Of a stretch of 26,419 nt of DNA, positions 4,622-26,419 are shown one piece after another. This stretch comes from Paraspadella gotoi (lineage: Eukaryota; Animalia; Chaetognatha). The notes beneath the pieces are model-generated. The model saw nothing but the letters and a program-made list of their open reading frames with translations, made no database searches and was not told the origin of the DNA. Every line of letters begins with the position of its first letter. The stretch's first letter is position 1. The position numbers and the translations under genes are program-made. The stretch is from assembly GCA_051294375.1 (NCBI GenBank), contig CM119270.1, positions 9,997,387 through 10,023,805 of the forward strand. The letters run 5' to 3'.

Positions 4622-5438
4622 TGAGTCAGTTTCTATTCAATTGAAAATCTATTGTTTGCCTTTGAATTAATTTTAAAATTGACTAGTCAAAAACTCACAT
4701 TTTCAAGTTTTATTACAATTTTGTTAAACAAAAATTGTTTGATTACTTACAATTCTGGCAAATATTCTATTCAACTGAGCTTCCAACACCTAAAAAATTA
4801 TGGGCAAAATATTCAATACTTTGGCTGTAAAAAATAATTTTAAGCCGACTTTTAATTTGTGAGGTTTTGTGAGGTGCATTTTTTTTAAAATAAAACTCGT
4901 TTTTTTAACTAATTTTATAGTTTCATCAGATGAGAAACACACTAATTGTTCAAGTTTAAAAAAAAACGCATTCTTTTAATGTCATAGGAGCTTTCAGGAC
5001 ATTTTTTTTCTCCCAATCGACACGTTTTTGCGGAAAAAATTTCCGCAGAAAATTATCGATTTTTTAAATCTGCTAGCACCAAACTTCCGCTAAAATCTTG
5101 CACTACTCCTATTTTTTTTACAATACATTAAAAGATTTTAAAAATTAGTGAGAAGGAGAAAAAGATAAGAGAAGCAAAGTACGGGTTGAAAAAAAAAACG
5201 GGCAGGGAGAGGGAGAACAAGTGGAAAAAAAAAATATATGAGGAAAAGAGGGAGAACAAGAATGATTAAAGAGAAAAAAAACAAGAAAGAAGGAAGAAAG
5301 AGAATCAGATAGGGAGAAAAGCAGAGATAGAGCGGAAGGGAAATAAAGGTAAAGGAAGAAAAAATGGATGACACAGATAATTATGAGGAGAGAAAAGTAA
5401 GAGAAAGGGGAAAGACAGAGAGAAAGAGAGAGGGACAG
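4622..5438 (+). repeat. ~810-bp direct duplication, copy 1
   Basis: Nearly identical to 6808-7619 (tgagtcagtttctattcaattg ... gagagagggacag); differences are mostly 1-bp indels. Confidence 0.9.
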
Positions 5439-6779
5439 TAGTAAGAATGAGGGTGAAAATACAAGGAATTTTGTAATAGAACAGTTCTCTGTTTGTTTCA
5501 GAAGAAGGATATACTAGACAACTAGACAGTTTTTATTGCGTATTTTTGTATATTAATAAAATTCAAATCTCTTTGTTTGTGAGACCATCTGTTTATTGAA
5601 GACCAAAATCAAGCAAATATTTGCTATTTTGTGTGTAAAAGCGAAATGCACGTTAAAATCTAGTATGAGTGCAGACAGAAGAGCAAATTTAATATAGAAA
5701 GGTTAAAGGGAAAATGCTCATAGTAGAGTAAGAGACATACCATAGTCGGTAGAAAAGTTTCAAAGAGACGGAAAAAATTTAAAAAATGGGAAATTGGGGA
5801 GAAAAAATTTTCAGGGGGTAATAAATTTCAGAAAAAAAGTAGTAATTCAGAAATGGAGAGGAAAATAAGAAAAAAAAGAAAGAAAGAGAGGGCTGGAGGG
5901 TGCAAAGGTTTTAAAACAAAACAAATGAGTGCAGGAAGCGAACACGCAAATGGTTATAATAGCTTCCGGGTTCAATCTTTACTCATTTTTTTATTGCTCC
6001 CGGTTTGCGGTTCCACAAATCGGCCGTTGCACAGTGTTTGCTTACCGTTCCCGGAATGGTCCAATCTCTGTTCTCAACGAGAATTAACTGAAAAGAGTTG
6101 CGACAGGATGTAGAGATATATGTCCCCCTTTTCCGCCCAATTTATTGTTTGCCTTTTGTTATTTACCGTTTTCTGGATAGATGTCTTTTTTCTTCTTTAG
6201 GGATTAACTCCTATTTTCTTTCTTACCAGATATTCTAGGCACATTAGATTCTTATGGATTTTCCACCGTCACCAAACTGCCTTTTCGAGGCTTTAGGACC
6301 TTACTGGTCACGTCACCCTTTTCGAAGTACCATTTATCAACACACTGGCAGCGCTGCCCCCATCGAAAAGCGGTGGGGGCATCGAGGATAGCAAAGAAAC
6401 CGGTGGCCACAGACTCGTTCGATTCGTCTGACGCAGCCGATTTCCGCCCAACCGGAGTTGCAAAAGAAAAAGAAACGAAGAAGCGACGACAGCGAGCATA
6501 ACTGAAGCAAAGCACGGCTCCTCTCCAGAACCGATTGTGGCCTACATAAACCCAAGGCCGAACTTATTCGGCCATTCAGGCGGTGCGCCGGCCGATTCAA
6601 CAGGCGGTGGTACACATGCTCCAGATCAGATGGTGACGAATCGCCAGGAGTTCCGATGTAATACTCGACACGACTCGCTCCGTCAACTCCGCATTGCTAC
6701 TTTTGTGGACAGACATATGGATCTGGGAGTGTACAGGCCTTCAGGCACTCGGTGTCAGGCGAAGCCACTAGCACCGGGC

Positions 6780-6807: not shown

Positions 6808-7619
6808 TGAGTCAGTTTCTATTCAATTGAAAATATATGTTTGCCTTGAATTAATTTTAAAATTGACTAGTCAAAAACTCACATTTTAGTTTTTATTACA
6901 ATTTTGTTAAACAAAAATTGTTTGATTTATTTACAATTCTGGCAAATATTCTATTCAATGAGCTTCCGACACCTAAAAAATTATGGGAAAATATTCAATA
7001 CTTTGGCTGTAAAAAATATTTTAAGCCGACTTTTAATTTGTGAGGTTTTGTAGGGCATTTTTTTTAACAACTAAAACTCGTTTTTTTAACTAATTTTATA
7101 GTTTCATCAGATGAGAAAACAACTAATTGTTCAAGTTTAAAAAAAACAGCATTCTTTTAATGTCATAGGAGCTTAGGACATTTTTTTTCTCCCAATCGAC
7201 ACGTTTTTGCGGAAAAAATTTCCCGCAAAAATCTGTCGATTTTTTAAATCTGCTTGCAACCAAACTTCCGCTAAAATCTTGCACTACCTCACTTTTTTTT
7301 TACAATACATTAAAAGATTTTAAAAATTAGTGAGAAGGAGAAAAAGATAAGAGAAGCAAAGTATGGGTTGAAAAAAAAAACGGCAGGAGAGGGAGAACAA
7401 GTGGAAAAAAAAAAATATATGAGGAAAAGAGGGAGAACAGAATGATTAAGAGAAAAAAAACAAGAAAGAAAGAAGAAAGAGAATCAGAAGGGAAGAGAAA
7501 AGCAGAGATAGAGCGGAAGGGAAATAAAGGTAAAGGAAGAAAAAATGGATGACACAGATAATTATGAGGAGAGAAAAGTAAGAGAAAGGGAAAAGACAGA
7601 GAGAAAGAGAGAGGGACAG
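6808..7619 (+). repeat. ~810-bp direct duplication, copy 2 (starts at the gap edge)
   Basis: Matches 4622-5438 and begins 4 bp after the N gap. Confidence 0.9.
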
Positions 7620-8890
7620 GAGAAAGTTCAAAGAGAAAAGTAATAAGAAAAGGAGTAGAAAAAGGAAAAAAGTTTTATACTATAGCATGCCGTTTTTTTG
7701 CCTAAGCAGTACTATATCTAAAATATGTGAAGATCTTACGTGCAATTTAATCTCTAAAAGTTGGTCTTACCATGAAAAATTGGTTTTAATTTAATTTCTT
7801 CTTAATTAAGGATGATACCGTATTTGGAATGACGTGGTAAAGAAATCATGTCTTACTGTATTTTTGAAAGCCATAGAATTCACCCAGTGACTTCTATGTT
7901 ATAAAGAGAAGATAACTATAACGAACCATTTTTTTAAATAAAAGGGTGTTTCATATTTATCAGTGGGAAAAAAGAAATAATAGTTAGTAAAGTTCCAATT
8001 CATTGTTGAAAATACCCAAATAGAAATCACTGACAGGTTACGATATAAAAAATTGAAAAAACACTTGCTATTTGTTGAAAAGCAGGTGCAAGTGAAGATT
8101 TAGTGTGTGCAGATAAAAAATTTTAAATGTTCCTTTGTCTTACAAAAGGCCTCCTGTTTTGTAAAGCCCTCTAGTAGAATAGAAGTAAGGAAGATAAAAA
8201 GGACCCGAAAACCGAAATAAAATTTTTTTCTCAAACCATCTTGTCATTCAAATCTCAAGACAAAAGTGAAAATGGACAAAATTGGACATAATTTTTTTTA
8301 TTAAAAGTAGCAAAAATGATATTGATTCTTGATTAGAAAATGCTGCAGATGATTTCAATTAATCCGTAGTCTAGCCCACTTTGTCTTCGGGTTCAAATTT
8401 AATTAATTTTGTAGGTAATATTCTAGCAATATTGCAAAAAGTGTTTTTTTTTAATGAATTCCTCGATAGAAATCATTGCCAACTATTTTTAAAAATAATT
8501 TTTTTTATATTTTTGAAAAAAAATATGAAAATGATGCAAATTACATGTTTATTAATTGTTCTTAATTGCTTGCAATTTGTGAATGGCCTTCTTTCGCCGC
8601 ATGCAACATAATCTTAAAAGTATAATGCTCTATCTGGGATGGAGGAAGAGGAGGATGAATGCGTGGCTGACGAGACACGAGACTCGCGCTCGGGCTGATT
8701 TGGTCGTTGTAATGATCTCGCCAAACCTTACTATCAAAAAAATTAATAAAAAGTATATATATATATAATTTAATTTGCATATTGCTGTAAATCATGATTA
8801 AATGGAAATTCAAACAAAAAATAATTGAATCGATATGAAACAAAGAAAATGGACTGCCTCACTAATGGAACTTGATAACTTGATAGTTGA

Positions 8891-9276: not shown

Positions 9277-10492
9277 TACTTCAGGTTCGATGGACGGTAC
9301 TACGCCCAGCCTGGTGGCTTAGGGATGGGCAAGTCGACATCAAGTCCTCTGGCAGATTTCTATATGGAGGACTATGAGGTGGAAGCTTTGGCCTCTTTTC
9401 GATCGTTGCATGGGGAAGAGTCAGTCCTCTTCTCGTATCAGAAAGCAGACGATACCATTCTGGCCATGCGCAAAGACCTCATTGAGGATCTTTTGAACCA
9501 CCTGAACAGCATCCATGTGAGAATCAGGTGGATATGTGAGAGGGAGGTGAATGGGTCAATTCCAATGCTCGATGTGTTGATTCAACGCAAATAGGGTGGC
9601 TCATTAGAATTTTCAGTCTACCGCAAACCGACCCACACAGACCAATACATTCCCTTCACCTCGCATGCCCCCTGTCTCACAAGCTCGCCACGGTCAGATC
9701 CCTTACCAGGAGAGCCGTTCTGATTCCGTCAACCCCTGAGCTTCAGGCCGCCGAGCTTGAGCACGTCAAAAGAGCCTTGGCGATTAATGGCTATCCTCTG
9801 TGGGCCTTCGAGAAGGCTAGGTATCGGCCACACCTGGCTGAGGACAGTGGCCAACCAGGGGCTGTCCAAGTAACCGCTGACGCAGGTTCTACCTCCACCC
9901 CCCAGGAGGTGAAACGGGAGCTTGCTGCTGAAGAACTGACCGCGCCCACCACAGCGCAAGTGGAAGATAAGCAGAAGCGCCCAAGGAATGTGGGCCACTT
10001 GTCCCTCCCCTACCACCAGGGGATCACTGAATCATTGGTGCGGATGCTAGCAAATCAGGGGATCTCCGCGGTTCTCTGCGTGAGCAAATGGTGAAACCAA
10101 AAGACAAAATCTCCAGACAAAAAACATCCAGAGCCGTCTATTGGGCGGCCTGTGCAGGGGCGGGTAACCAAGCCTGTACAGCAGCATACGGGGGCGAGAC
10201 AGGCAAATCTCTTACAGATCGATTCCAGCATCACAAAAAGCCTTATCGTGATGCCCGAGGTCACTACTTGTCCGCAATAGCTGAGCATTCAGCAGAAACA
10301 GGCCATCTGTTCAGAGAATCAGACTGTCTCGTGCTGTCCCATGACCCAAACTGGTTCTCAAGAGGTATTAGAGAAGCAGTCTACATCAAAGCCCTTGAGC
10401 CCTCTTTGAACCGTGATAGAGGACGATTCGACCTCCCTCCAAGCTATGATTCGTTTACCAAAAACCCCGCCGCCACCACGCCTGCACAATGA
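9277..10492 (+). mobile_element. Penelope-like retroelement, 5'-truncated pseudogene: C-terminal RT, thumb/linker and GIY-YIG endonuclease
   Basis: Motifs: YFRFDGRYYAQPGGLGMG..SPLADFYME (RT4), KADD (RT5), HLNSIH, PMLDVLI (RT7), VYRKPTHTDQY, HKLATVRSLTRRA, NGYP, LPYHQGITE, then AVY..C....C..YGGETGKSL.DRF.HH...SAIAEH...GH...R.IREAVYI...PSLNRDRG. Disrupted by TAG 9592-9594 and frameshifts near 9670 and 10073. The linker lacks a Cys-rich finger, consistent with the Penelope/Poseidon type. Confidence 0.95.
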
Positions 10493-14776: not shown

Positions 14777-14830
14777 TCAAAACGCTGATGAAGGCTTGTA
14801 AAGCAAGTCGAAACATGTCTGTTCAATTGA
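14777..14830 (+). ncRNA. Minimal type I hammerhead ribozyme (Penelope-type)
   Basis: Core CUGAUGA 14785-14791 plus one extra A; stem II GGCUUGU/GCAAGUC 14793-14809; GAAA 14810-14813; 1-bp stem III closed by the palindromic loop CAUG; GUC cleavage triplet ending at 14819; stem I AACG/UGUU, extendable by UCAA/UUGA. Confidence 0.85.
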
Positions 14831-15092: not shown

Positions 15093-16161
15093 TTTAGAGT
15101 TAGGGTTGAGTTGGTTTAGGGTTAGGGTTGAGTAGTTAGGTTAGGGTGAGTAGAGTTTTAGGGTTTTAAGAAGAGATTGAGTTAAGTTAAGTTTTTGTAC
15201 ATTTTTAGGCCTTAGTTAATTTAATGTCATTTTTTAGGGATAGGGGTGAGGGGGAAGGAAAAGTGTTGTTTGAATCGATCCAATAAGAAAGCCCGAACGG
15301 TTAGGAGTGAGGCTTAGGGTAAGGTACTGCTGGCGAGGGACATAGGTGATTGAGGGAAGAGCACGGAAGATGTACCGGAGGCCTGGGCCCGTTAGACGGG
15401 TTAATAAGAGGCTTAAGGTAAGAGAGGGCCCGCGTGGGATTATAATATCAAGGTGGATAGGGTTGAGGAGAGTTGAGAGGTTACGGAGACCCCAATTTGG
15501 GAAGGCTTGGTATTAAGGTTCTAGGGTATATGGGGGGGACCCGAGCGAACGCGCGAGGGTTGAATGCCCTCATAAGGCGTGGTAGCGGGTGGGTGTCTTG
15601 AGTTAGCTGGGGCGCGCACCACCGCATGCGGGAAGGCCGGGCCCGGGTTAGGAGGAGAGGGCATAGGAGTTGAAAGGGAGTGCTTGGCTTTAGGGTAGGG
15701 CTTGGGGCAGGACACCATGGTTTGTGCCACTCGAGGCGTAGTCAAAGGTTCGTGTTAGGGTTAGGGTTGAGCATACGGAGATGGGTTACAAAAGGGAAAA
15801 AAAAGGGCCCGGCCTGGGCCCACTGTACGGGTTAGGGAGAGGCATGGAAGATTGCAAACGGGAGGCATAGTTTAGGGTTAGGGTGGGGAGGGGCCCGTGG
15901 TTGATGCGATCAAAGGCAGTTAGGGTTAGGGTATTGAGGCACGGAGATGTACGGGGAGGCCCCCTCGGCCTGGGTTAGGGTTTAGGGGAGAGGCGCAGAG
16001 TTGAACGGAAGCTGGGTTAGGGTTGGGGAGGGGCCCGTGGTTGATGCATCAAAGGCGGTTAGGGTTGAGGCATGGAGATGTACGGGAGGCCCAGGCCCGG
16101 GTTAGGGTTAGGGGAGAGGCACAGAGTTAAACGGGAGGTTTGGTTTAGGGTTAGGGTTGGG
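15093..16161 (+). repeat. G-rich satellite (about 130-165 bp unit) interspersed with telomere-type TTAGGG monomers and dimers
   Basis: Many ggttagggttaggg blocks. Unit markers gggcccgtggttgatgc at 15891 and 16031 and ggagatgtac at about 15943 and 16074. Units become more degenerate toward the left. Confidence 0.85.
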
Positions 16162-16683
16162 AGAGGAGCCTGTAGGTGAATGTTCATCCCCGTGTTAGCT
16201 GCGCTTTTCATTATATTGCTACTTATTTATCACTGGCGAGGTCCGCCAGTGGGGCGACGTGGCGACATCGCCAAAAGCCCTGGAGTCGATGATCGCCATG
16301 GCAAATTTCGCAGAACCAACTAGAACCACACCTGCGAACTCGTGCGTGATCGCCGGCGACATGCGCTATTTGAATGAACTACAACTAAGAAGTCAAAAAT
16401 ATCATAGTCGTTAACTGAGTATTTTCACAACTATATATTTTGTTAATAGGGATTATAATTTTTTGATCGTTATTATTGAAAAGAGTTTAGCTTCATCGCG
16501 ACAAGTTTTTTTTCTTCTGAATAGGGGTAGCCCCTCTCAATGGGGTGAATCAAAAATTTAGTATGGGAACATGCTCAAACGAAAATTTATGCATTTTTAA
16601 GTTTACTTTCAACGTACAAAAAATTTCTTATATGGCTCTATAACCAAATATTTATTTTGTAATATTTTTTTATAGAAAGGAAA

Positions 16684-16915: not shown

Positions 16916-17346
16916 TTTGATTATTCTTTATATAAACGAGAGAGACCTAATAATGTATTTCGTTGGCGGGAAAACTGTCCATGCCTCGGTGGCCATTTGT
17001 TCATTCTCTCCTCTTTTCATTTTGCTATTACACGCATTTTGGTTTGTTTTATTTACGATGAATGATTCATTGTGTCAATGATGATTATCATCGCATCAAT
17101 GAATGACTATTGAAGAGACAGTAATTATTGATAAGTGTTAAATGACAGAACCGTTCAATATAAGCAGTCCCTGAGCTTCGGATCAGGCTGTAACACCATG
17201 TTACAGGCGGGTTAAGCGCCCAGTCCCTCTTAACCTGACCAGACGACACGGGCTAGAACCCGGACCTTTGGGTTGGGAGGCGAATGATTTGCCTCTGGCA
17301 CAATGGCCGCTGATGAACGGTTGGTGGATTTCTTAGTCCACCATCA

Positions 17347-17359
17347 TCCCGCCCCTCCC
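17347..17359 (-). promoter_or_regulatory. Polypurine tract GGGAGGGGCGGGA
   Basis: Directly precedes the TG of the 3' LTR on the - strand. Confidence 0.75.
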
Positions 17360-17525
17360 ATAAGCGGAATTAGTTCTGTTGTAGTCTCTTCTGTGAATTG
17401 TTTGTTTGTTGGTGGAAAGTTCGTCAGCCAAGTTGTATGGAGCATGTCGCCTGATGTGTTGTGGCGAAAGTGCATCGCCAGGTTGAGGCATGTCGCCTGA
17501 AGTGTGTTGTTGGCTGTTGTGTTCG

Positions 17526-17543
17526 GAAGTCGGTATCAGACCA
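17526..17543 (-). promoter_or_regulatory. Candidate primer-binding site TGGTCTGATACCGACTTC
   Basis: Starts with TGG (complement of tRNA CCA) 1 nt downstream of the 5' LTR end on the - strand. I do not recognise the cognate tRNA. Confidence 0.6.
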
Positions 17544-17674
17544 ATGAAGAGTAATGATAAGTGTTAATGGAAGAACGTTCAATTAACAGATATCAAGTCG
17601 TCCTCTGAGCTTCGGAAGGCTGTAACACCATGTTACAGCGGGTTAAGCGCCCCATCCCTCTTAACTGCCAGACG

Positions 17675-17745
17675 ACCGGCCGGGCTAGAACCCCGGACCT
17701 TTGGGTTGGGAGGCGAATGACTTGCCTCCGGCACCAATGGCCGGT
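17675..17745 (-). promoter_or_regulatory. tRNA-derived Pol III type-2 promoter region in the 5' LTR (more degenerate copy at about 17245-17310)
   Basis: 71-nt segment closed by ACCGGCC/GGCCGGT (acceptor-like). A-box-like TGGTGCCGGAGG (17736-17725); B-box GGTTCTAGCCC (17692-17682) in a T-arm-like hairpin. The anticodon arm does not pair, so this is not a functional tRNA. Confidence 0.75.
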
Positions 17746-17777
17746 GATGAACGGTTGGTAGATTTTAGTCCACCATA

Positions 17778-17962
17778 CTATCATCGTATCAAATGAATGA
17801 TTATCATCATATCAATGAATGACTATCATCGCATCAAATCATTTGATTATCAATCACATCAGTCATTTTGTTATCATGCGCATCAATTATTGGTTATCAT
17901 CGCGTCAATATTTGGGTTATCATCGCATCAATATTTGGTTATCAATCGCATCAATATTTGGT
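17778..17962 (+). repeat. ~22-bp minisatellite (TATCATCGCATCAATgaatgac / atttggt)n; left remainder at about 17057-17110
   Basis: Tandem units are visible on both sides of the TRIM insertion. Confidence 0.85.
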
Positions 17963-19827
17963 TTACCCATCGAAAGCATGGTCGATCCTTATGCTTTTAA
18001 GATTTTTTTTATAAAAATATGTTAATAAAAAACCAATGGTAGCTGATAAACGCTTCAGAATTTAGCAATATCTAAATTTTAAAAAAAACAATTTTTGGAA
18101 TAATAGAAATGTTATAATTTGGCAAAAACCTTTTTATTTTCGCCTATAAAAACAAAAGCTCAAGAGGTGAAAGCGCAACGTTTTTTGCGCCTCCGCATTT
18201 GTCTCAAGTCCGAGTTCGCCACCTCAAAAAACATGCGCCTCCGCGCGTTTCTAGTCTGCCTCCCGGATCGCGTCTGCATCTCTGGTAATAACAAATATAA
18301 AATTTCTAAAGGAAGGAAGCGATGTGCACTCAAAACCGAAAACGATCGGGGCTAAAAAAGTAGGGATTGCACTCGAAATCGGGAGCGGGAGGGGTCTCGG
18401 GAAGCGCCGGATTGGCAGCGGTGGAAAATCGATCGCTTCCACGTCTCTGCGTGAGAACCAGCGTGAAAAAGCTAAAAGCCCTTTGGAGATTGAAAAATAA
18501 CAACAAGTAAATCTGCTTTTATATTTGTCGGTGAATATGACGATCAATTAAATTACGAAACCCGATAACTATCGAAAATACTGACATCCGAGTCGTAGAT
18601 TTACGATGCGATTATCGTGCGAGGTACTTTCACTTTGCATTTTATTGCTTTGCATTTTACTTGTCTTTTTGCATTTATTTGCATTGCTTTGTATTGCATT
18701 CATTTGCATTGATTTTAATTATTTGAAAGAAGTATTTGGCTCTTTATCAGAAAGATAGTCGGCAATCAGTTAACGTCATAACTCATTTAGGTTTAAATCG
18801 TGATCTAAGTCGTTCAGTCGGCAGATTCCTTTGTGAAACATTTTCACTCGTAAACGCGATGTGACGCGACGAGAAATAAAGAACACGATAAAAATTTCAA
18901 TATTAATAAAAAAAAATAATAATGTAAGCTCGGATCTTCTCACGGTCGGAATGATTTGAAAGGTTGAGACGCCGTCCACCGTCAAGAATAGGGAAAGATG
19001 AAAGAGAGAGAAAGTGTAGTATACGAAGTGTAATATAAGTGAGAGAGTTAGAGTGAGAGTGAGACTGAGAGAGTGATAATAATGGGGGTGAAAGTGTGTG
19101 AGTATAATTGGAGTGGAATTTGTTTTAAAGTAAAAAAAAATCTGGATCAATGGAAAAAAAGGATGAAAGCCAAGAATTAGGAAGAATAAAACGAGGATCA
19201 CATCGCGGGGAATTTGGAAAGACGATAATTTTAAAAGAAAGGTAAAATATTTAAGTAAAAAAACAAGAACAAATTTAAATAAAATTAATACAGAATAAAA
19301 TCTCTTTAAACAGAACAAAATATTTATAAGAATCCGAATAATGGCTAAACCAAAACCATTTTGAATTGAATAAATGCAACCAAACGTGAATTTTTTTTTC
19401 CGTTTCCTCTTTAAAAGTATGACTTTCTCTGTTTGCTGTGAAAAAGCCATTCGCTTGTGATAAAATAAAATAGCAGGGAGGATATACGATATACTGGCGG
19501 AGAGAACTCTTACTTACAAACGAGGATTTATGATTACATATAACGATACCGCGCCTCAGCCTCAGAACTCAGGGGGAGCGAGACGGTGGGGGGACAAAAC
19601 GACGAAAAAGGGGGGAGCAAAAACAAGGGGGCTTTTTTTCAAAGAGGGCGATAATCTGGGCGAACATCAGACGTCCAACTCGATTACGTACAACACGAAA
19701 ATTGTTCCTCTGTTTTTCTCCGATTTAGGGTCAAAAATATTGTGCCTTGGGGGATCGCGAGACCGCGAGGCAGCGGTGAAAGATTGACGGAGCGCTTGGG
19801 GAAGCGAGGGATAGAGGGAGGGAGAGT

Positions 19828-20721: not shown

Positions 20722-21505
20722 GACAGAGAGAGAGAGAGATAGAAACGAATTTATAAAGGTTGATTCTCGTCTAAATCAGCGATGGTGAAAAACGATTTTT
20801 GATCAACGGGAGGAAAACAGTGAGGCCGGAAAAAAAGGAAGAGAGTAAGAGTTTAAAAAACGACGTTTTTATTGTGGAAAAAGGAACTGCTTCGTTGGAA
20901 AACCCTAAAATGATAGAGTTGAAAGAAAAAAAGGGTAAGAAGTAAAATGAAATAAAGAAAAGCAGAACCTTTACTTGAGAATTGGATAATGTATAAGAAG
21001 GGAACAATGGAAGCCAAGAAAGGACAATTTTAATGAGTTGACAATTGGTTTGAAAGGGTTTCAAGAGTATGAAGGTAACAAGAAACCCCTAATATACGTT
21101 TTATACGAATAACAATAACATCGAAAAAACGATTCTATTCACGGTTTTATTTTTGGCATTCGATTCATCACCACTCTGATCAGTGATCACTTTCACACGC
21201 CGAACGACTTAGTAATGGGTGAACTTCGGATTTTCGACCCTGGCAGTTCGTGCCACTTTCTAAAATCCAAAACATTCCTAATAGCAAATAGATTCTGAAT
21301 ATCATCAGTATATCTTTCACACGATATCAGCCTCACTTATCAAGCCTAAACTGTGAATCAATCACATTTACTATTCATGTAAATCGAGTAAATTCTTTTT
21401 TAAATCGTTCTCTTTCTTCGATTGATGATCGAAATAAAAGATCGAAATAAAAAAGCGAATAGGATACGAAGCAATATAGTCGAGAGTAAAAACACGAGCG
21501 AAGTA

Positions 21506-22844
21506 CATGGTGACAATTTTACAAGCGCCGGTAGAAATACGTTGTCATTTGCAAACCAGTGGTTATTTCATTGATTTTAAAATTTAGTTGGGTAGAAAAT
21601 ACTAAAACTATTTATGTGTTAAAATTTTCTATTGATCAGTTAAGATATGCCGTGACAATGAGTGGAGAAAGTTGGCTTTTCAAATCGGGTGAGGAGACTT
21701 ACCACCGGTCTTTCTCTCTAAACCCTTCCTCTCTCCTCTTTCTCTGCCCTAGCTTTGACAATGACCTTAGATTGACCGGACACAGTAATAGGGCCGAGGC
21801 GACCGTAAGGTCAAGTTGGTTTGGACAATGTAAGAGAAGTAGAAAAGAAGTGAGACGAGCTCTCTCCTGATCCACTTTTATCATCGCCCGGACCAACTTT
21901 ACCTTAAGGTCGCCTCGGCCCTATTACTGTGTCCGGTCAATCTAAGGTCATTGCCAAAGCAAGGGCAAAGTGACCGTGTGGATAGACCGGCTCGGAGAAA
22001 GAGGAGAGAGGAAGGGTTTAGAGAGAAAGACCGGTGGTAAGTCGCCTCACGGGTTTCATTTTCCAACTCGCTGTTTTTATATTCAATTTTTTTTTGTAAC
22101 TTTAAGCACTTTTTTAAACAAAGTATTAATTAAAATATAATATAATAAATATAATAATAAATATAATATTAATATCCTCAGAAAGCCCTTAAAAATATGA
22201 AGAGAATTATATACTTACGAATACTGTAGTATAAAATTTAATTGGCCCAGCTTTAATTTAATTAGGATATTCAAAAACGAGACATCTTTTTAAAAATCAA
22301 TAGCTGGAGAGTAAATTTATAATTTTTATCAAATTGTGATTGGCTATCTTAAATCTTTTTTTCTCAGGCTTTTTCATGATACTTATATAAATAATAATAT
22401 TTTTGTTATAATAATTTAAACAGGTCATATATTTTGAAAAAAAGATTTAAAATTTTAAATAATTAACTTTTGACACTCTTAATTGAACCAAGGCTGGGTA
22501 GCTTACTTTTTAGGTTAGAACTTTCGTAAGTATATCAATCTCTTCATATTTTTAAGGGCTTTATGAGGATATTAATATTGTTAATATGTTAATAAGTACT
22601 TAGTTTAAAAAAGTGCTAAAGATTAAAAAAAATTGAATTTAACTGTGTTGGAAAATAAAACCCGATTTGAAAAGTCAACTTTCTCCACTCATTGTCAAGG
22701 CATATCTTAACTGATCAATATAAAATTTTAACACATAAATAGTTTTAATATTTTCTACTCAACTAATTTTTGAAATCAATGAAATAACCACTCGTTTGCA
22801 AATGACAGCATATTTCTACCGGCGCTTGTAAAATTGTCACCATG
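21506..22844. mobile_element. Tc1/mariner-type long-TIR MITE, copy 1 (TA TSD)
   Basis: ta|catggtgacaattttacaagcgccggtagaaata ... tatttctaccggcgcttgtaaaattgtcaccatg|ta. TIRs are about 330 bp (right arm about 22520-22844; left arm interrupted by a nested MITE). No transposase. Confidence 0.88.
21690..22049. mobile_element. Palindromic 360-bp MITE with TGAGG...CCTCA ends and 4-bp TSD CGGG
   Basis: Arms tgaggagacttaccaccggtctttctctctaaacc... and ...ggtttagagagaaagaccggtggtaagtcgcctca. CGGG at 21686-21689 and 22050-22053. The empty site aaatcgggtttcatttt is seen in host copy 2 (about 23747-23763). Confidence 0.88.
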
Positions 22845-23928
22845 TATTCACCGTACGTAGATACAGTGTAATTTTAGTTATTGTTCAATCGGTTGTAGTC
22901 TATATGCATATCGTATAGAATTTCGAGTCCTAACTTCGAATCAGAACCTCTCTCACCGCCAGAGACAACTGAAAAAAGAAAAGTGGAGTCGCGCGAGAGT
23001 TGGATCTCAGACTCAAAGATAAAGCGATTGAAGAATGAGATTGAAGGCGAGGGCGGAATAAGGGTTGGGGTGATCGTCAAGGATTTAATAATATTTCAGA
23101 TAAGATACATGTATACAATATTGTTAGTAATATTTTAATTAGCCTCCAATTTAGTAATTAACTTTCGTTCAAATTTTGTCTCTAAATTTTCTCAGTTCCA
23201 AAGTTTAATATTTCATAGATTCCCAGGAACTCAGCGCCTATTTTGTAAACATTTTGTCTAAGTAGAATAAACAAAGGAAGAGAGACGAGAGGGAGGCCGA
23301 GATTTTAGTACATTCCATTTTTAGATCTCAAGGGAGTAAGACGCAATATTTTAACAACCGTTTGATTTACTAATACAACTTTGGCAATCTACAATTATTT
23401 CAGGTAACTTCAAAAAATAAGACTAGTCAGTCATGTACCACCTAGCTCTCTATCTGTCATCTATTGAGGGTCACAGGTCACGTTACCGACAATATAATAC
23501 ATAAGAATGATAGCGAGTTAATTGATTATATTTTCATAATGCAGTTGTGAAAAAATTTGTAGAGGGGATACATGGGTGACAATTTTACAAGCGCCGGTAG
23601 AAATATGCTGTCATTTGCAAACCAGTGATTATTTCATTGATTTAAAAATTAGTTTGTAGAAAAATACTAAAACTATTTATGTATTTAAAATTTTATATTG
23701 ATCAGTTAAGATATGGCTTGACAATGAGTGGAAGAAGTTGGCTTGTAAATCGGGTTTCATTTTCCAACTCACTGTTTTTAAATTCAATTTTTTTAAACTT
23801 TTAGCACCTTTTTAAACAAAGTGTTTATTAAAATATTAACAATATTAATATCCTCAGAAAGCCCTTAAAAAATATGAAGAGAATGATATACTTACAAAAA
23901 GCTCTAACATAAAAAGTGAGCTGCCCAG

Positions 23929-25272
23929 AAAGACGTAGTAAAATTCCTAAGTTTAACTTTAATTAAATCTAAAAGTGAGGAACGAACAACATTATACTTA
24001 TGAACATTTATGCATAAAAAAATTTATAATAAATTTTACACATTTAGCAGTAGGCCATATTTATACTAGTACTAAACCAATAAATGTTAAAATTTCAAAA
24101 CAGTTTTTTCTAAAGATTTTTTAGCAGATTTGGATTTGTCATAAAAGGTTGATAAAAAGAAATATAACTCTTTTGAAAAATTCCTTCATTAATGGGTCAA
24201 AATTAGAAAAAGCTATATTTTAAAGTCTGAAATTATTTTTGATTATATTAACTGTAGTTTTTTTTGATTTTTAACCCCACTTAATGAAAGAATTTTTAAT
24301 GTCGCCTGATGTTTGGAAAATGATCGCGTTAGGCTCGTGAATTTTATCTTTGTTCGGAAGTCTCATGAAAGTAATTCTGAGTGGTATACAGACCTTTATA
24401 ACAGTGTCCTGAGCTGGATGCTGAACACATGTCGCGTTAAGCCTCCTCTTAATCCAACACGGGTGATGCTCGGCACCAATGGCGTGAAAGTTGGTGATTA
24501 GCCAAAAGCTATTTTGGAAAATTATTTTATAAATAAGTTTTTTTTATAAACCCTAATCGAAAGAATTTTAAAATGATATATTTTTACGTTGAGAATTAAA
24601 TTAACATTAAGAAAGCCATTAACATAAAAGACAGGACTCGATCCCTCAAACTCTGGGCACACGATTATTACCTTTATTATTGTCGCGAACTGCGACATGT
24701 TGAAACATAATATTCCATTTACTTTTTACTATAGTATTACTTTACGTAAAACAAATGAACATTATAATTGTATATAATCAAGAGAACGACTAGTAAGTAT
24801 TGTTGTAAATCTCTATTTATGGAAACTTCTTTATTATTCATCTTTATTTTTGCCTCACAAGGATTTTGATTTGATATATGTTAATTTTATATTATTGGTT
24901 AATGTTATTAATGATTGTTAACGAAATATTAGTATTGCTTGCTATTGCTTGCTATTGATTTTTTCCTTGGGTTGATATGCATATAAGAATATCTATTGCT
25001 TTGATTATTTTTATTAAGGTCTGTTTTTAATAACGAACAAATAAAAGACTTTGTTCTGGAAAACATTTTATTGTTTAGCTAAACTTTTGGAGTCAGCGAC
25101 GCACGTGGCAACGTTAATCAACCGTTCGCCACAGATAGTACTATATATAAATATAGCCTACTGCGAAATTTAAAAAACATAAATTTTTTTTTTTACAAAT
25201 TAATGTTCACTGATGGTATGTTGTTCATAATTGACTTTTAGAATTTTCGTATGTAACTTTCACTACGCCTTA
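23929..25272. mobile_element. Non-autonomous DNA transposon with 8-bp TSD (hAT- or P-type)
   Basis: CTGCCCAG is duplicated at 23921-23928 and 25273-25280, and a single ctacccag is present at the empty site in copy 1 (reverse complement of about 22494-22502). Imperfect TIRs: aaagacgtagtaaaatt versus taaggcgtagtgaaagtt (reverse complement of the right end). Confidence 0.8.
24299..24504 (-). mobile_element. Deletion-riddled fragment of the tRNA-LTR TRIM (part of interior plus one LTR)
   Basis: Colinear matches to 17444-17775: atgtcgcctgatgt, tgttcggaagtc, tgaa..gtaat, cctgagct, gttaagc, cctcttaa, cggcaccaatggc, gttggt. Confidence 0.75.
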
Positions 25273-26419
25273 CTGCCCAGCCTTGGTTCAATTAAGAGTA
25301 TTAAAAGTGAATTATTTAAAATTTTAAATTTTTTTCAAAATATATGACCTGTTTAAATTATTATAACATAAAATATTATTATTTATATAAGTATCATGAA
25401 AGAGCCTGAGAAAAAAGGATTTAAGAAAGCCAATCACAATTTGATAAATATCATAAATTTACTCTACACTACAGCTATTGATTTTTAAAAAGATGTCTCG
25501 TTTTTGAATATCCTAATTAAATTAAAGCTGGGCCAGTTAAATATTTTATTTGTAAGTACGTCATTCTTTTTATATTTGAAAGGGCTGGGGCTTTTCAGAA
25601 GATATAATTATATTATTTTTATTTAAATTTCTTCAGAAAACTTACTACGAAAATAAGAGAAAAAATTGAATCTAAAAAAAGTGAGTTGAAAATGTAAACC
25701 CGATTTTACAAGCCAACCTTTCTCCACTCATTGTCAAGGCATTTCTTAACTGATCAATATCAAATTTTAACACACCACATAAATAGTTTTAGGATAATTT
25801 CTTACTAAACTAATTTAAAGTCATGAACATAGACCACTGGTTGGCAAATGACAGTCTGTATTTTATCGCGCGTCTTGTAAATTTGTCTACTACCATTTGT
25901 ATTGTCAGGCTTTTTATTAATACCTTAACTATTAAGGTTAATTGATTAATAGTTATGCCTGACAACAACGTATGAATTAGGTACAGCGTAAGTATGACAA
26001 TCACTTTGACGGATTTTGGGCAAAGGGTAAACGTTTTGTCTACGTTTTAAATACTATTATCAATAAATTTAGCTATTATAAAAAAGCTTTGAAATAAATT
26101 GGAAAGGAAAAAGGATGACCATTAAACACTTCATCTCTTTCTTGTTTTGGTTTTGTTTTTGTTTTCGTTCTTCATTTTTTTCTTATTCGCAGAAGAAAAC
26201 TCAAATACCGAGAAAAAAAAAGCATTAAAATTCGAAGTCGAAAATTCGGAAAGCGAAAACGACGAACGACGAAGACACGAATTCTTTCGGAGCACGAAAT
26301 TTGAAAGATGAAACTTAAATAAGAAGAATAAGAACCAGTTTTTGTTCTCAGAGAGAGAGAGAGAGAGCGAGAGCGAGAGGAACTGACAGACAGACAGACA
26401 GAAGAGCGAGAGAGAGGAG

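What the first reader, a model, noticed from the sequence alone, without database searches (positions are those of the whole stretch)
17111..17777. Complete miniature LTR retrotransposon whose LTRs carry a tRNA-derived Pol III promoter
Seen: two ~235-bp direct repeats with TGA..TCA ends, a TGG-starting PBS-like site, a PPT, a 4-bp TSD (CTAT) and no ORF. Each LTR contains a 71-nt tRNA-like unit (A box, B box, acceptor-like stem) in the element's sense orientation. Known: Cassandra TRIMs carry 5S-derived Pol III promoters in their LTRs. From memory, and to be verified, a tRNA-bearing counterpart called Helenus has been reported with 4-bp TSDs in animals. Inference: a SINE/LTR hybrid, transcribed by Pol III and mobilised in trans by an autonomous LTR partner (a 4-bp TSD would fit a Gypsy-type integrase), possibly an uncatalogued family. 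A second, decayed copy in this same window suggests it is repetitive.
Basis: partly seen in the sequence, partly recalled or inferred. Interest (0 to 1): 0.85.

Follow-up and report, generated by a model that had tools for sequence, protein, structure and literature searches.

The report
Helenus-type mini retrotransposon, tRNA-like LTRs
This is a real, abundant, gene-less 667-base jumping element of an animal whose two end repeats each carry a decayed tRNA gene copy that likely serves as its promoter; it is a new family of a kind described in 2024 (Helenus), not a new kind.

Summary
Observation mostly confirmed. Window 17111-17777 (minus strand) is a non-coding LTR element: two 233-236-bp LTRs, a 198-bp interior with PBS and PPT, and a 4-bp TSD (CTAT) splitting one unit of a 22-bp tandem repeat. 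A profile of 10 tRNAs not chosen for likeness finds only the two LTR segments in 26.4 kb (E 6e-6, 1e-4; next 4.5), although ARAGORN and Rfam call no tRNA. Contigs of public runs show a high-copy family: 95, 97 and 19 contigs leave the LTR end at 17777 into mixed, AT-rich flanks, and a second species holds it. Corrections: the outer end reads TA..CA, not TG..CA; PBS variants in other copies fit tRNA-Trp; the A box is degenerate; the assembly is indel-rich, so LTR divergence cannot date it. It meets Kojima's (2024) definition of animal Helenus (TRIM, tRNA-derived LTR, 4-bp TSD); none of 12 motifs matched his consensus file. Pol III transcription and a Gypsy helper are inferred, untested. New member of a known kind.

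The parts
17107..17110 (.). Target-site duplication CTAT (left)
   Evidence: Sequence; empty site restores tandem unit
17111..17346 (-). 3' LTR (236 bp)
   Evidence: Alignment with 5' LTR; contig pieces begin at 17111 and PBS-side joints land on 17111
17188..17206 (.). Near-palindromic hairpin in the post-tRNA part of the LTR (copy at 17620-17638)
   Evidence: Self-match; positions; role unknown, dimerisation signal is a guess
17243..17310 (-). tRNA-derived segment of the 3' LTR (B box 17250-17260, A-box-like 17292-17302)
   Evidence: nhmmer with unselected tRNAs E 1.1e-4; positions
17347..17359 (-). Polypurine tract, 13 nt, abutting the 3' LTR
   Evidence: Sequence; not covered by laid contigs, so seen in this copy only
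17347..17544 (-). Non-coding interior, 198 bp, with a 12-nt direct repeat spaced 46 nt
   Evidence: interior-to-LTR junction also in a contig of organism B (record 2)
17529..17543 (-). Primer-binding site; degenerate here, tRNA-Trp-like in other copies
   Evidence: Joint variants 17531-17538 to 17111 compared by eye with Fig. S2 of PMC10886601
17545..17777 (-). 5' LTR (233 bp), sense termini TA..CA
   Evidence: loose ends behind 17777 in 95, 97 and 19 contigs
17674..17744 (-). 71-nt tRNA-derived segment of the 5' LTR (B box 17682-17692, A-box-like 17725-17736); predicted Pol III start near 17744
   Evidence: nhmmer E 5.7e-6; 48 identical of 77 columns with tRNA-Gly(CCC) of L020 (motif-selected)
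17756..17775 (-). Short hairpin in the 33-nt U3-like stretch at the LTR start (copy 17322-17343)
   Evidence: Sequence
17778..17781 (.). Target-site duplication CTAT (right)
17058..17963 (.). ~22-bp tandem repeat array into which the element inserted
   Evidence: TRF on the element-free flanks, 10.1 copies, 80% matches; flank-to-flank joints 17110 to 17792 in 6, 6, 2 and 2 contigs
24231..24503 (-). Decayed second copy: interior plus PBS-side LTR, PBS and middle of the tRNA part deleted
   Evidence: Score 114 vs max 55 in 60 shuffles; 221 matches, 43 mismatches, 95 deleted bases

Best explanation
This is a gene-less miniature LTR retrotransposon (TRIM) of the Helenus type with a tRNA-derived segment in each LTR, likely transcribed by RNA polymerase III from that segment and likely copied and inserted by the proteins of an autonomous Ty3/Gypsy element. 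Shown: LTR pair, PBS, PPT, 4-bp TSD, no ORF, tRNA ancestry of the LTR segment, many independent insertion sites with AT-rich flanks. Inferred steps: (1) TFIIIC binds the A/B boxes of the 5' LTR and Pol III starts near 17744, reading about 630 nt leftwards; this strand has no run of four T, so the RNA would cross the interior and the 3' LTR and end at a weak site or in the flank; (2) a Gypsy Gag packages the RNA and host tRNA-Trp primes at the PBS; (3) the ~200-nt strong-stop DNA jumps to the same sequence in the 3' LTR, the PPT primes the second strand, and the 33 nt upstream of the tRNA head are restored from the 3' LTR; (4) the Gypsy integrase inserts it at an ATAT/ATAG/CTAT-like site, leaving a 4-bp TSD. 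The tRNA-like unit is not a working tRNA and not the primer. My odds: identity as Helenus-type TRIM 0.9, Gypsy helper 0.8, Pol III promoter in use 0.6-0.7.
For: Anatomy and exact TSD inside a tandem unit. Unselected-tRNA profile hits only the two LTR segments; top 11 of 10,376 sliding windows are these two sites, minus strand. Family-wide LTR boundary at 17777 with mixed flanks (agreement 0.42-0.46) whose majority letters begin ATAT or ATAG (ATAT also). 8,626 contigs of one run lie on 454 bases. PBS variants share a core with 12 of 13 complementarity to the honeybee tRNA-Trp end printed in Fig. S2, where Gypsy-32_NVi and Helenus-2_SyJa use Trp. Animal Helenus have 4-bp TSDs and Gypsy-like PBSs (PMC10886601); Drosophila Gypsy-group elements give 4-bp TSDs with ATAT/TATA motifs, Pao-group 5-bp (PMC3276498 passages); ant PbTRIM gives 4-bp ATAT (PMC3532108 passages). 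No T4 on the sense strand; 5.4% of 2,000 shuffles also lack one, a weak support.
Against: ARAGORN and Rfam find no tRNA. The profile hit covers only model positions 24-67, not the D arm/A box. The A box lacks the TRGCY and YGG that Kojima finds in most Helenus, and the B box has T at the purine position, so the promoter may be dead. No terminator is visible in the 3' LTR. No transcript was seen, no autonomous partner was found (no genome held), the TSD is shown for one copy only, and the PPT-LTR junction had no cover in the laid contigs. The host's own tRNA-Trp is not known.
Confidence: 0.72

Rival explanations
1. Same TRIM, but the tRNA-derived segment is an inert relic of an old SINE insertion into the LTR and the element is transcribed by Pol II (own weak promoter or read-through).
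For: Degenerate A box, one B-box mismatch, no tRNA call; no Pol III terminator; Kojima states that Pol III function of Helenus is unvalidated.
Against: Only 33 nt lie upstream of the tRNA head, with no TATA box by eye; B-box core GGTTC and acceptor/T-stem pairing are kept (fold; loose-end letters pair 7 of 7 with one G-U); no T4 on the sense strand.
Confidence: 0.19
2. Helenus-type TRIM moved by a non-Gypsy helper (BEL/Pao or Copia).
For: No partner found; BEL elements can share PBS types (BEL-4_NVi in Fig. S2).
Against: 4-bp TSD and ATAT-like targets fit Gypsy; Pao-group and Copia give 5 bp. A 5-bp reading (ACTAT) would put the end at 17776, but the family end is at 17777.
Confidence: 0.05
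3. An ordinary tRNA SINE locally duplicated in tandem, mimicking LTRs.
For: LTR bins have far more contig depth than interior bins, and head plus 130-nt body looks SINE-like.
Against: Fixed boundary 33 nt upstream of the head with mixed flanks; no tail; PBS, PPT and one TSD around both repeats; interior-LTR junction in other copies, in a second species and in the decayed copy. Solo LTRs and errors in the window's interior explain the depth ratio.
Confidence: 0.02
4. A retrozyme-like element whose RNA ends are made by a self-cleaving ribozyme in the LTR.
For: No T4 terminator; long hairpin-rich LTR part behind the tRNA head; Helenus-2_SyJa/SyUm, also Trp-primed, show a hammerhead-like core there by eye.
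Against: No hammerhead core on the sense strand even with one mismatch; no Rfam ribozyme at E up to 10.
Confidence: 0.02

Closest known systems
Animal Helenus (TRIMp3), Kojima 2024, PMC10886601 (main text parts 1-5 of 6 and passages of part 6; supplement parts 1 and 5-11 of 11 read)
   Same: TRIM of 667 bp (range 311-1263), tRNA-derived non-functional segment in both LTRs in sense orientation, PBS for a tRNA 3' end one base after the LTR, PPT, 4-bp TSD, GGTTC in box B, no complementarity between the tRNA-like unit and the PBS. Trp PBS as in Helenus-2_SyJa; TA start as in Helenus-3_TheEle, -2_EuAn, -1_MeDo, -3_MeDo (by eye).
   Different: No sequence match: 0 of 12 motifs found in Data S1 (line breaks can hide a match) and no likeness by eye. 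A box lacks TRGCY/YGG. The head sits 33 nt from the LTR start with ~130 nt behind it and no T run after it, whereas most listed animal LTRs have the head in the middle or 3' part, often followed by a T run (by eye; MLe and the Synergus families are exceptions).
Cassandra and Ajax (5S-derived TRIMp3); known here only through Kojima's text, Kalendar 2008 not held
   Same: TRIM with a small-RNA-derived Pol III promoter in the LTR; Cassandra is the only validated case.
   Different: 5S-type promoter, 5-bp TSD for Ajax; here tRNA-type A/B boxes.
PbTRIM of ants, Zhou and Cahan 2012, PMC3532108 (passages)
   Same: Animal TRIM of 480-781 bp, 4-bp TSD, ATAT preference, many solo LTRs.
   Different: Leu PBS; no tRNA-derived LTR segment mentioned in the passages read.
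tRNA-derived SINEs (SINE2)
   Same: tRNA head followed by an unrelated body.
   Different: Here the head is inside a fixed-end LTR; no tail, PBS and PPT present, 4-bp TSD.

Membership tests
TRIM | Two LTRs around a short interior, under 1000 bp, no coding capacity | tested here: met
   667 bp
TRIM | PBS after the 5' LTR | tested here: met
   TGG at 17541-17543; variants in other copies fit tRNA-Trp 12 of 13; this copy is degenerate
TRIM | PPT before the 3' LTR | tested here: met
   13 purines at 17347-17359; one copy only
TRIM | Dispersed repeat with fixed ends | tested here: met
   95, 97, 19 contigs leave 17777 into mixed flanks; second copy in window
TRIM | Canonical TG..CA termini | tested here: not met
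   Sense termini TA..CA; four listed hymenopteran Helenus LTRs also start TA, so not disqualifying
Helenus | tRNA-derived sequence in the LTRs (the paper's naming criterion) | tested here: met
   Unselected-tRNA profile E 5.7e-6 and 1.1e-4, next hit 4.5; ARAGORN and Rfam negative
Helenus | GGTTC in box B | tested here: met
   17682-17692 and 17250-17260
Helenus | [quoted passage not shown] | tested here: not met
   Box A reads TGGTG..AGG
Helenus (animal) | 4-bp TSD | tested here: met
   CTAT with reconstructable empty site; one copy; other copies not testable on short contigs
Helenus (animal) | PBS shared with an autonomous Gypsy of the same host | not testable with these tools
   No genome held
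Named Helenus family | Sequence identity to a listed consensus | tested here: not met
   0 of 12 motifs; animal consensuses compared by eye only; Repbase/Dfam not available
TRIMp3 | Transcription by Pol III from the LTR | not testable with these tools
   Only contigs were available; no raw RNA reads
SINE2 | Starts at the tRNA head, ends in a tail, variable TSD | tested here: not met
   Boundary 33 nt upstream of the head; no tail
Retrozyme | Hammerhead ribozyme in the LTR | tested here: not met

The most novel reading that the evidence does not exclude
An independently born, very abundant TRIMp3 in an animal lineage with no reported Helenus, whose LTR still holds the whole ancestral SINE (tRNA-Gly-like head plus a ~130-nt hairpin-rich body) behind a 33-nt stub of the old LTR, with no Pol III terminator: a snapshot of the proposed SINE-into-LTR origin, and a high-copy system in which Pol III-driven LTR retrotransposition in animals could be tested directly.
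Probability: 0.25. Interest if true: 0.6.

Novelty: new member of a known kind. Interest (0 to 1): 0.35.

Why it matters
Helenus was defined in 2024 from sequence alone; its Pol III transcription, its helpers and its origin from SINE insertions are all unproven. A high-copy animal family with a Trp PBS, a sharp target preference and an LTR that is mostly tRNA head plus body gives a concrete handle on all three: find the Trp-primed Gypsy, map the RNA ends, and look for a free SINE with the same body. For annotation it warns that such LTRs escape ARAGORN and Rfam and would be filed as SINE fragments. The class itself is known, so the surprise is modest.

Tried and rejected
No whole genome is held, so copy number, TSD survey, solo LTRs and partner search could not be run. 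Exact-pattern scans found no relatives in metagenome, prokaryote or viral contigs; BLASTN of the element against the 122 motif loci gave no hit at E 1e-3. No RNA holder listed; X9 is only guessed to be RNA and is contigs, so expression was not judged. Dating by LTR divergence rejected: 16 gap openings to 11 mismatches, and two other repeat pairs in the window are equally indel-rich (29 to 12, 41 to 15; a third has 0 to 10), and one laid contig lacks two PBS letters of the window, so assembly error is likely. Contig depth was not used as a copy number. Functional tRNA rejected: no cloverleaf (fold z -1.9 and -1.3), anticodon stem 3 of 5 pairs. Self-priming rejected: the unit's 3' end does not match the PBS (by eye). 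Isotype not settled: Gly(CCC) scores best (z 7.0-7.7) but was selected by the motif; unselected Lys, Val and Cys reach z 5.3-6.2. Host phylum not determined; Pfam scan of 15 frames found no host gene. Earlier findings by sequence and place: none. Literature searches listed no later Helenus survey; three other listed papers mentioning Helenus were seen as listings only.

Full report
Observation. The window is repeat-rich animal DNA (36% GC; a broken Penelope-like RT/GIY-YIG element at about 9290-10490; no host gene found among 15 frames; 'animal' is an inference from these). At 17111-17777 lies a 50% GC island made of two direct repeats, 17111-17346 and 17545-17777, around a 198-bp interior. 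The repeats align with 207 matches, 11 mismatches and 33 gap columns. On the minus strand a TGG follows the first repeat after one base and 13 purines abut the second. No frame of 80 aa overlaps the element. CTAT stands on both sides. The flanks are a ~22-bp tandem array; taking out the element and one CTAT restores the array, and the intact unit at 17816-17837 has a single CTAT, so the TSD is not a chance match. A deletion-riddled second copy lies at 24231-24503 (score 114; 60 shuffles 41.6 +/- 4.5, max 55).

Family evidence. No genome is held, so I laid contigs of 6 of the 13 listed public runs. In organism A the element is highly repeated: 8,626 contigs of run X3 lie on 454 bases. In three of four runs a top loose-end row is at 17777 (95, 97 and 19 contigs, median 210-255 letters, agreement 0.42-0.46), that is, many unrelated flanks; their majority letters begin ATAT or ATAG, and 6 of the 12 listed pieces that reach this end extend over CTAT (some are the same locus in different runs, and the list favours long pieces). 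No shown row lies at the tRNA head (24 rows shown, 1057 not). Laid on the left LTR, 41 contigs read ..CCACCATA and then AT-rich flank, so the family's sense termini are TA..CA and the extra C of the left LTR is the exception; this also favours the 4-bp over a 5-bp TSD reading. Joints from the interior to the LTR start carry one-letter variants of a common PBS core that is complementary at 12 of 13 positions to the honeybee tRNA-Trp end in Kojima's Fig. S2, better by eye than any other tRNA end printed there. One such contig matches this copy but lacks two of its PBS letters, which with the indel excess in other repeat pairs points to assembly errors. Organism B (X10) holds an LTR end with another flank and an interior-PBS-LTR junction with the same spacing (2 contigs laid). 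Against: the PPT side (17347-17394) had no cover, so that junction is seen in this copy only.

The tRNA-like unit. ARAGORN and Rfam call nothing. Best match was tRNA-Gly(CCC) of L020, 48 of 77 columns, 0 of 200 shuffles, but it was selected by the motif. For a fair test I used the 14 distinct tRNAs without the motif, dropped 4 of 80 nt or more, and built a profile from 10: it hits only 17719-17679 (E 5.7e-6) and 17287-17245 (E 1.1e-4) in the whole window, next E 4.5, and the top 11 of 10,376 sliding windows are these two sites on the minus strand. So tRNA ancestry is shown, the isotype is only suggested. The B box matches the recalled consensus at 10 of 11; the A box is degenerate and lacks the TRGCY/YGG of most Helenus; the hit does not include the D arm. 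Acceptor and T stems can pair, the D and anticodon stems cannot, so it is not a tRNA. The sense strand has no T4 over 667 nt (5.4% of 2,000 shuffles likewise): compatible with Pol III read-through, but it leaves the 3' end unexplained. No hammerhead core lies on the sense strand.

Mechanism. Most likely Pol III starts at the head of the 5' LTR near 17744 and reads through; a Gypsy particle packages the RNA; tRNA-Trp primes; the ~200-nt strong-stop DNA jumps to the 3' LTR, which works even if the RNA runs on past it; the PPT primes plus strand; integrase leaves a 4-bp TSD at an ATAT-like site. The general steps are established LTR biology as summarised in PMC10886601; their use here is inferred. 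The Gypsy assignment rests on TSD length and target (PMC3276498 passages: Gypsy group 4 bp, ATAT/TATA; Pao 5 bp; PMC3532108 passages) and on Kojima's PBS comparison. The main rival is that the tRNA segment is a dead relic and Pol II makes the RNA.

Comparison. Kojima names any TRIM with a tRNA-derived LTR segment Helenus, reports it in six animal phyla with 4-bp TSDs, considers it multiply born from SINE insertions, and says Pol III function is unvalidated (supplement parts 1 and 5-11 of 11 read, fungal parts 2-4 not). The element meets that definition. It matches no listed family (0 of 12 motifs; by eye). Its oddities have precedents there: TA starts in four wasp families, a Trp PBS and a long post-head LTR part in Helenus-2_SyJa, a similar CGCCTCCCA arm in fish families. 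Repbase and Dfam were not available, and the host phylum is unknown, so 'uncatalogued' and 'new lineage' are not shown. Searches listed no later survey. This scan's own unchecked notes hold 39 similar findings in at least 13 genomes, none from this genome.

Verdict. Real, well-formed, high-copy Helenus-type TRIM; new member of a known kind; interest 0.35. It would deserve about 0.6 if the host also carries a free SINE with the same head and body or if Pol III transcription were shown.

Noticed in passing
window 14779-14822 (+): A hammerhead-ribozyme-like core (CTGATGA, 6-bp stem II, GAAA, palindromic CATG, TC) of the minimal type that I recall from Penelope-like elements; found by pattern, no Rfam hit.
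   Followed up: partly
window 9290-10490 (+): Broken, 5'-truncated Penelope-like element (RT remnant plus GIY-YIG frame); homologues with RT and GIY-YIG domains.
   Followed up: partly
window 21504-22847, 23568-23928, 25273-25887: Several copies of a large inverted-repeat (MITE/foldback-like) family, including 187-nt arms 95% complementary and a ~360-nt near-palindrome at 21689-22050. The LTR flank in organism B resembles this family near 25669-25700 by eye.
   Followed up: no
window 4622-5445 and 6808-7626: 820-bp direct duplication, 94% alike, differing mostly by indels, the second copy right after an N gap: possibly an assembly duplication.
   Followed up: partly
window 17058-17963: The 22-bp tandem array that holds the element is itself a high-depth repeat family in the host's runs.
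   Followed up: no
window 15100-16180: GC-rich stretch with scattered TTAGGG units and internal direct repeats.
   Followed up: no
PMC10886601 Data S1, Helenus-2_SyJa-LTR and Helenus-2_SyUm-LTR: By eye these LTRs carry a hammerhead-like core (CTGATGAG..CGAAAC with pairing stems) behind the tRNA-like part; the paper's text mentions hammerheads only in a reference title. If real, a tRNA-headed retrozyme-like element in gall wasps. Not folded or tested.
   Followed up: no
L001, L008, L086, L102, L117, L119, L120 (ARAGORN 'Ala-CGC' and 'Trp-CCA' calls): A family of near-identical tRNA-like heads with inconsistent isotype calls, probably a SINE of the sampled animals.
   Followed up: no
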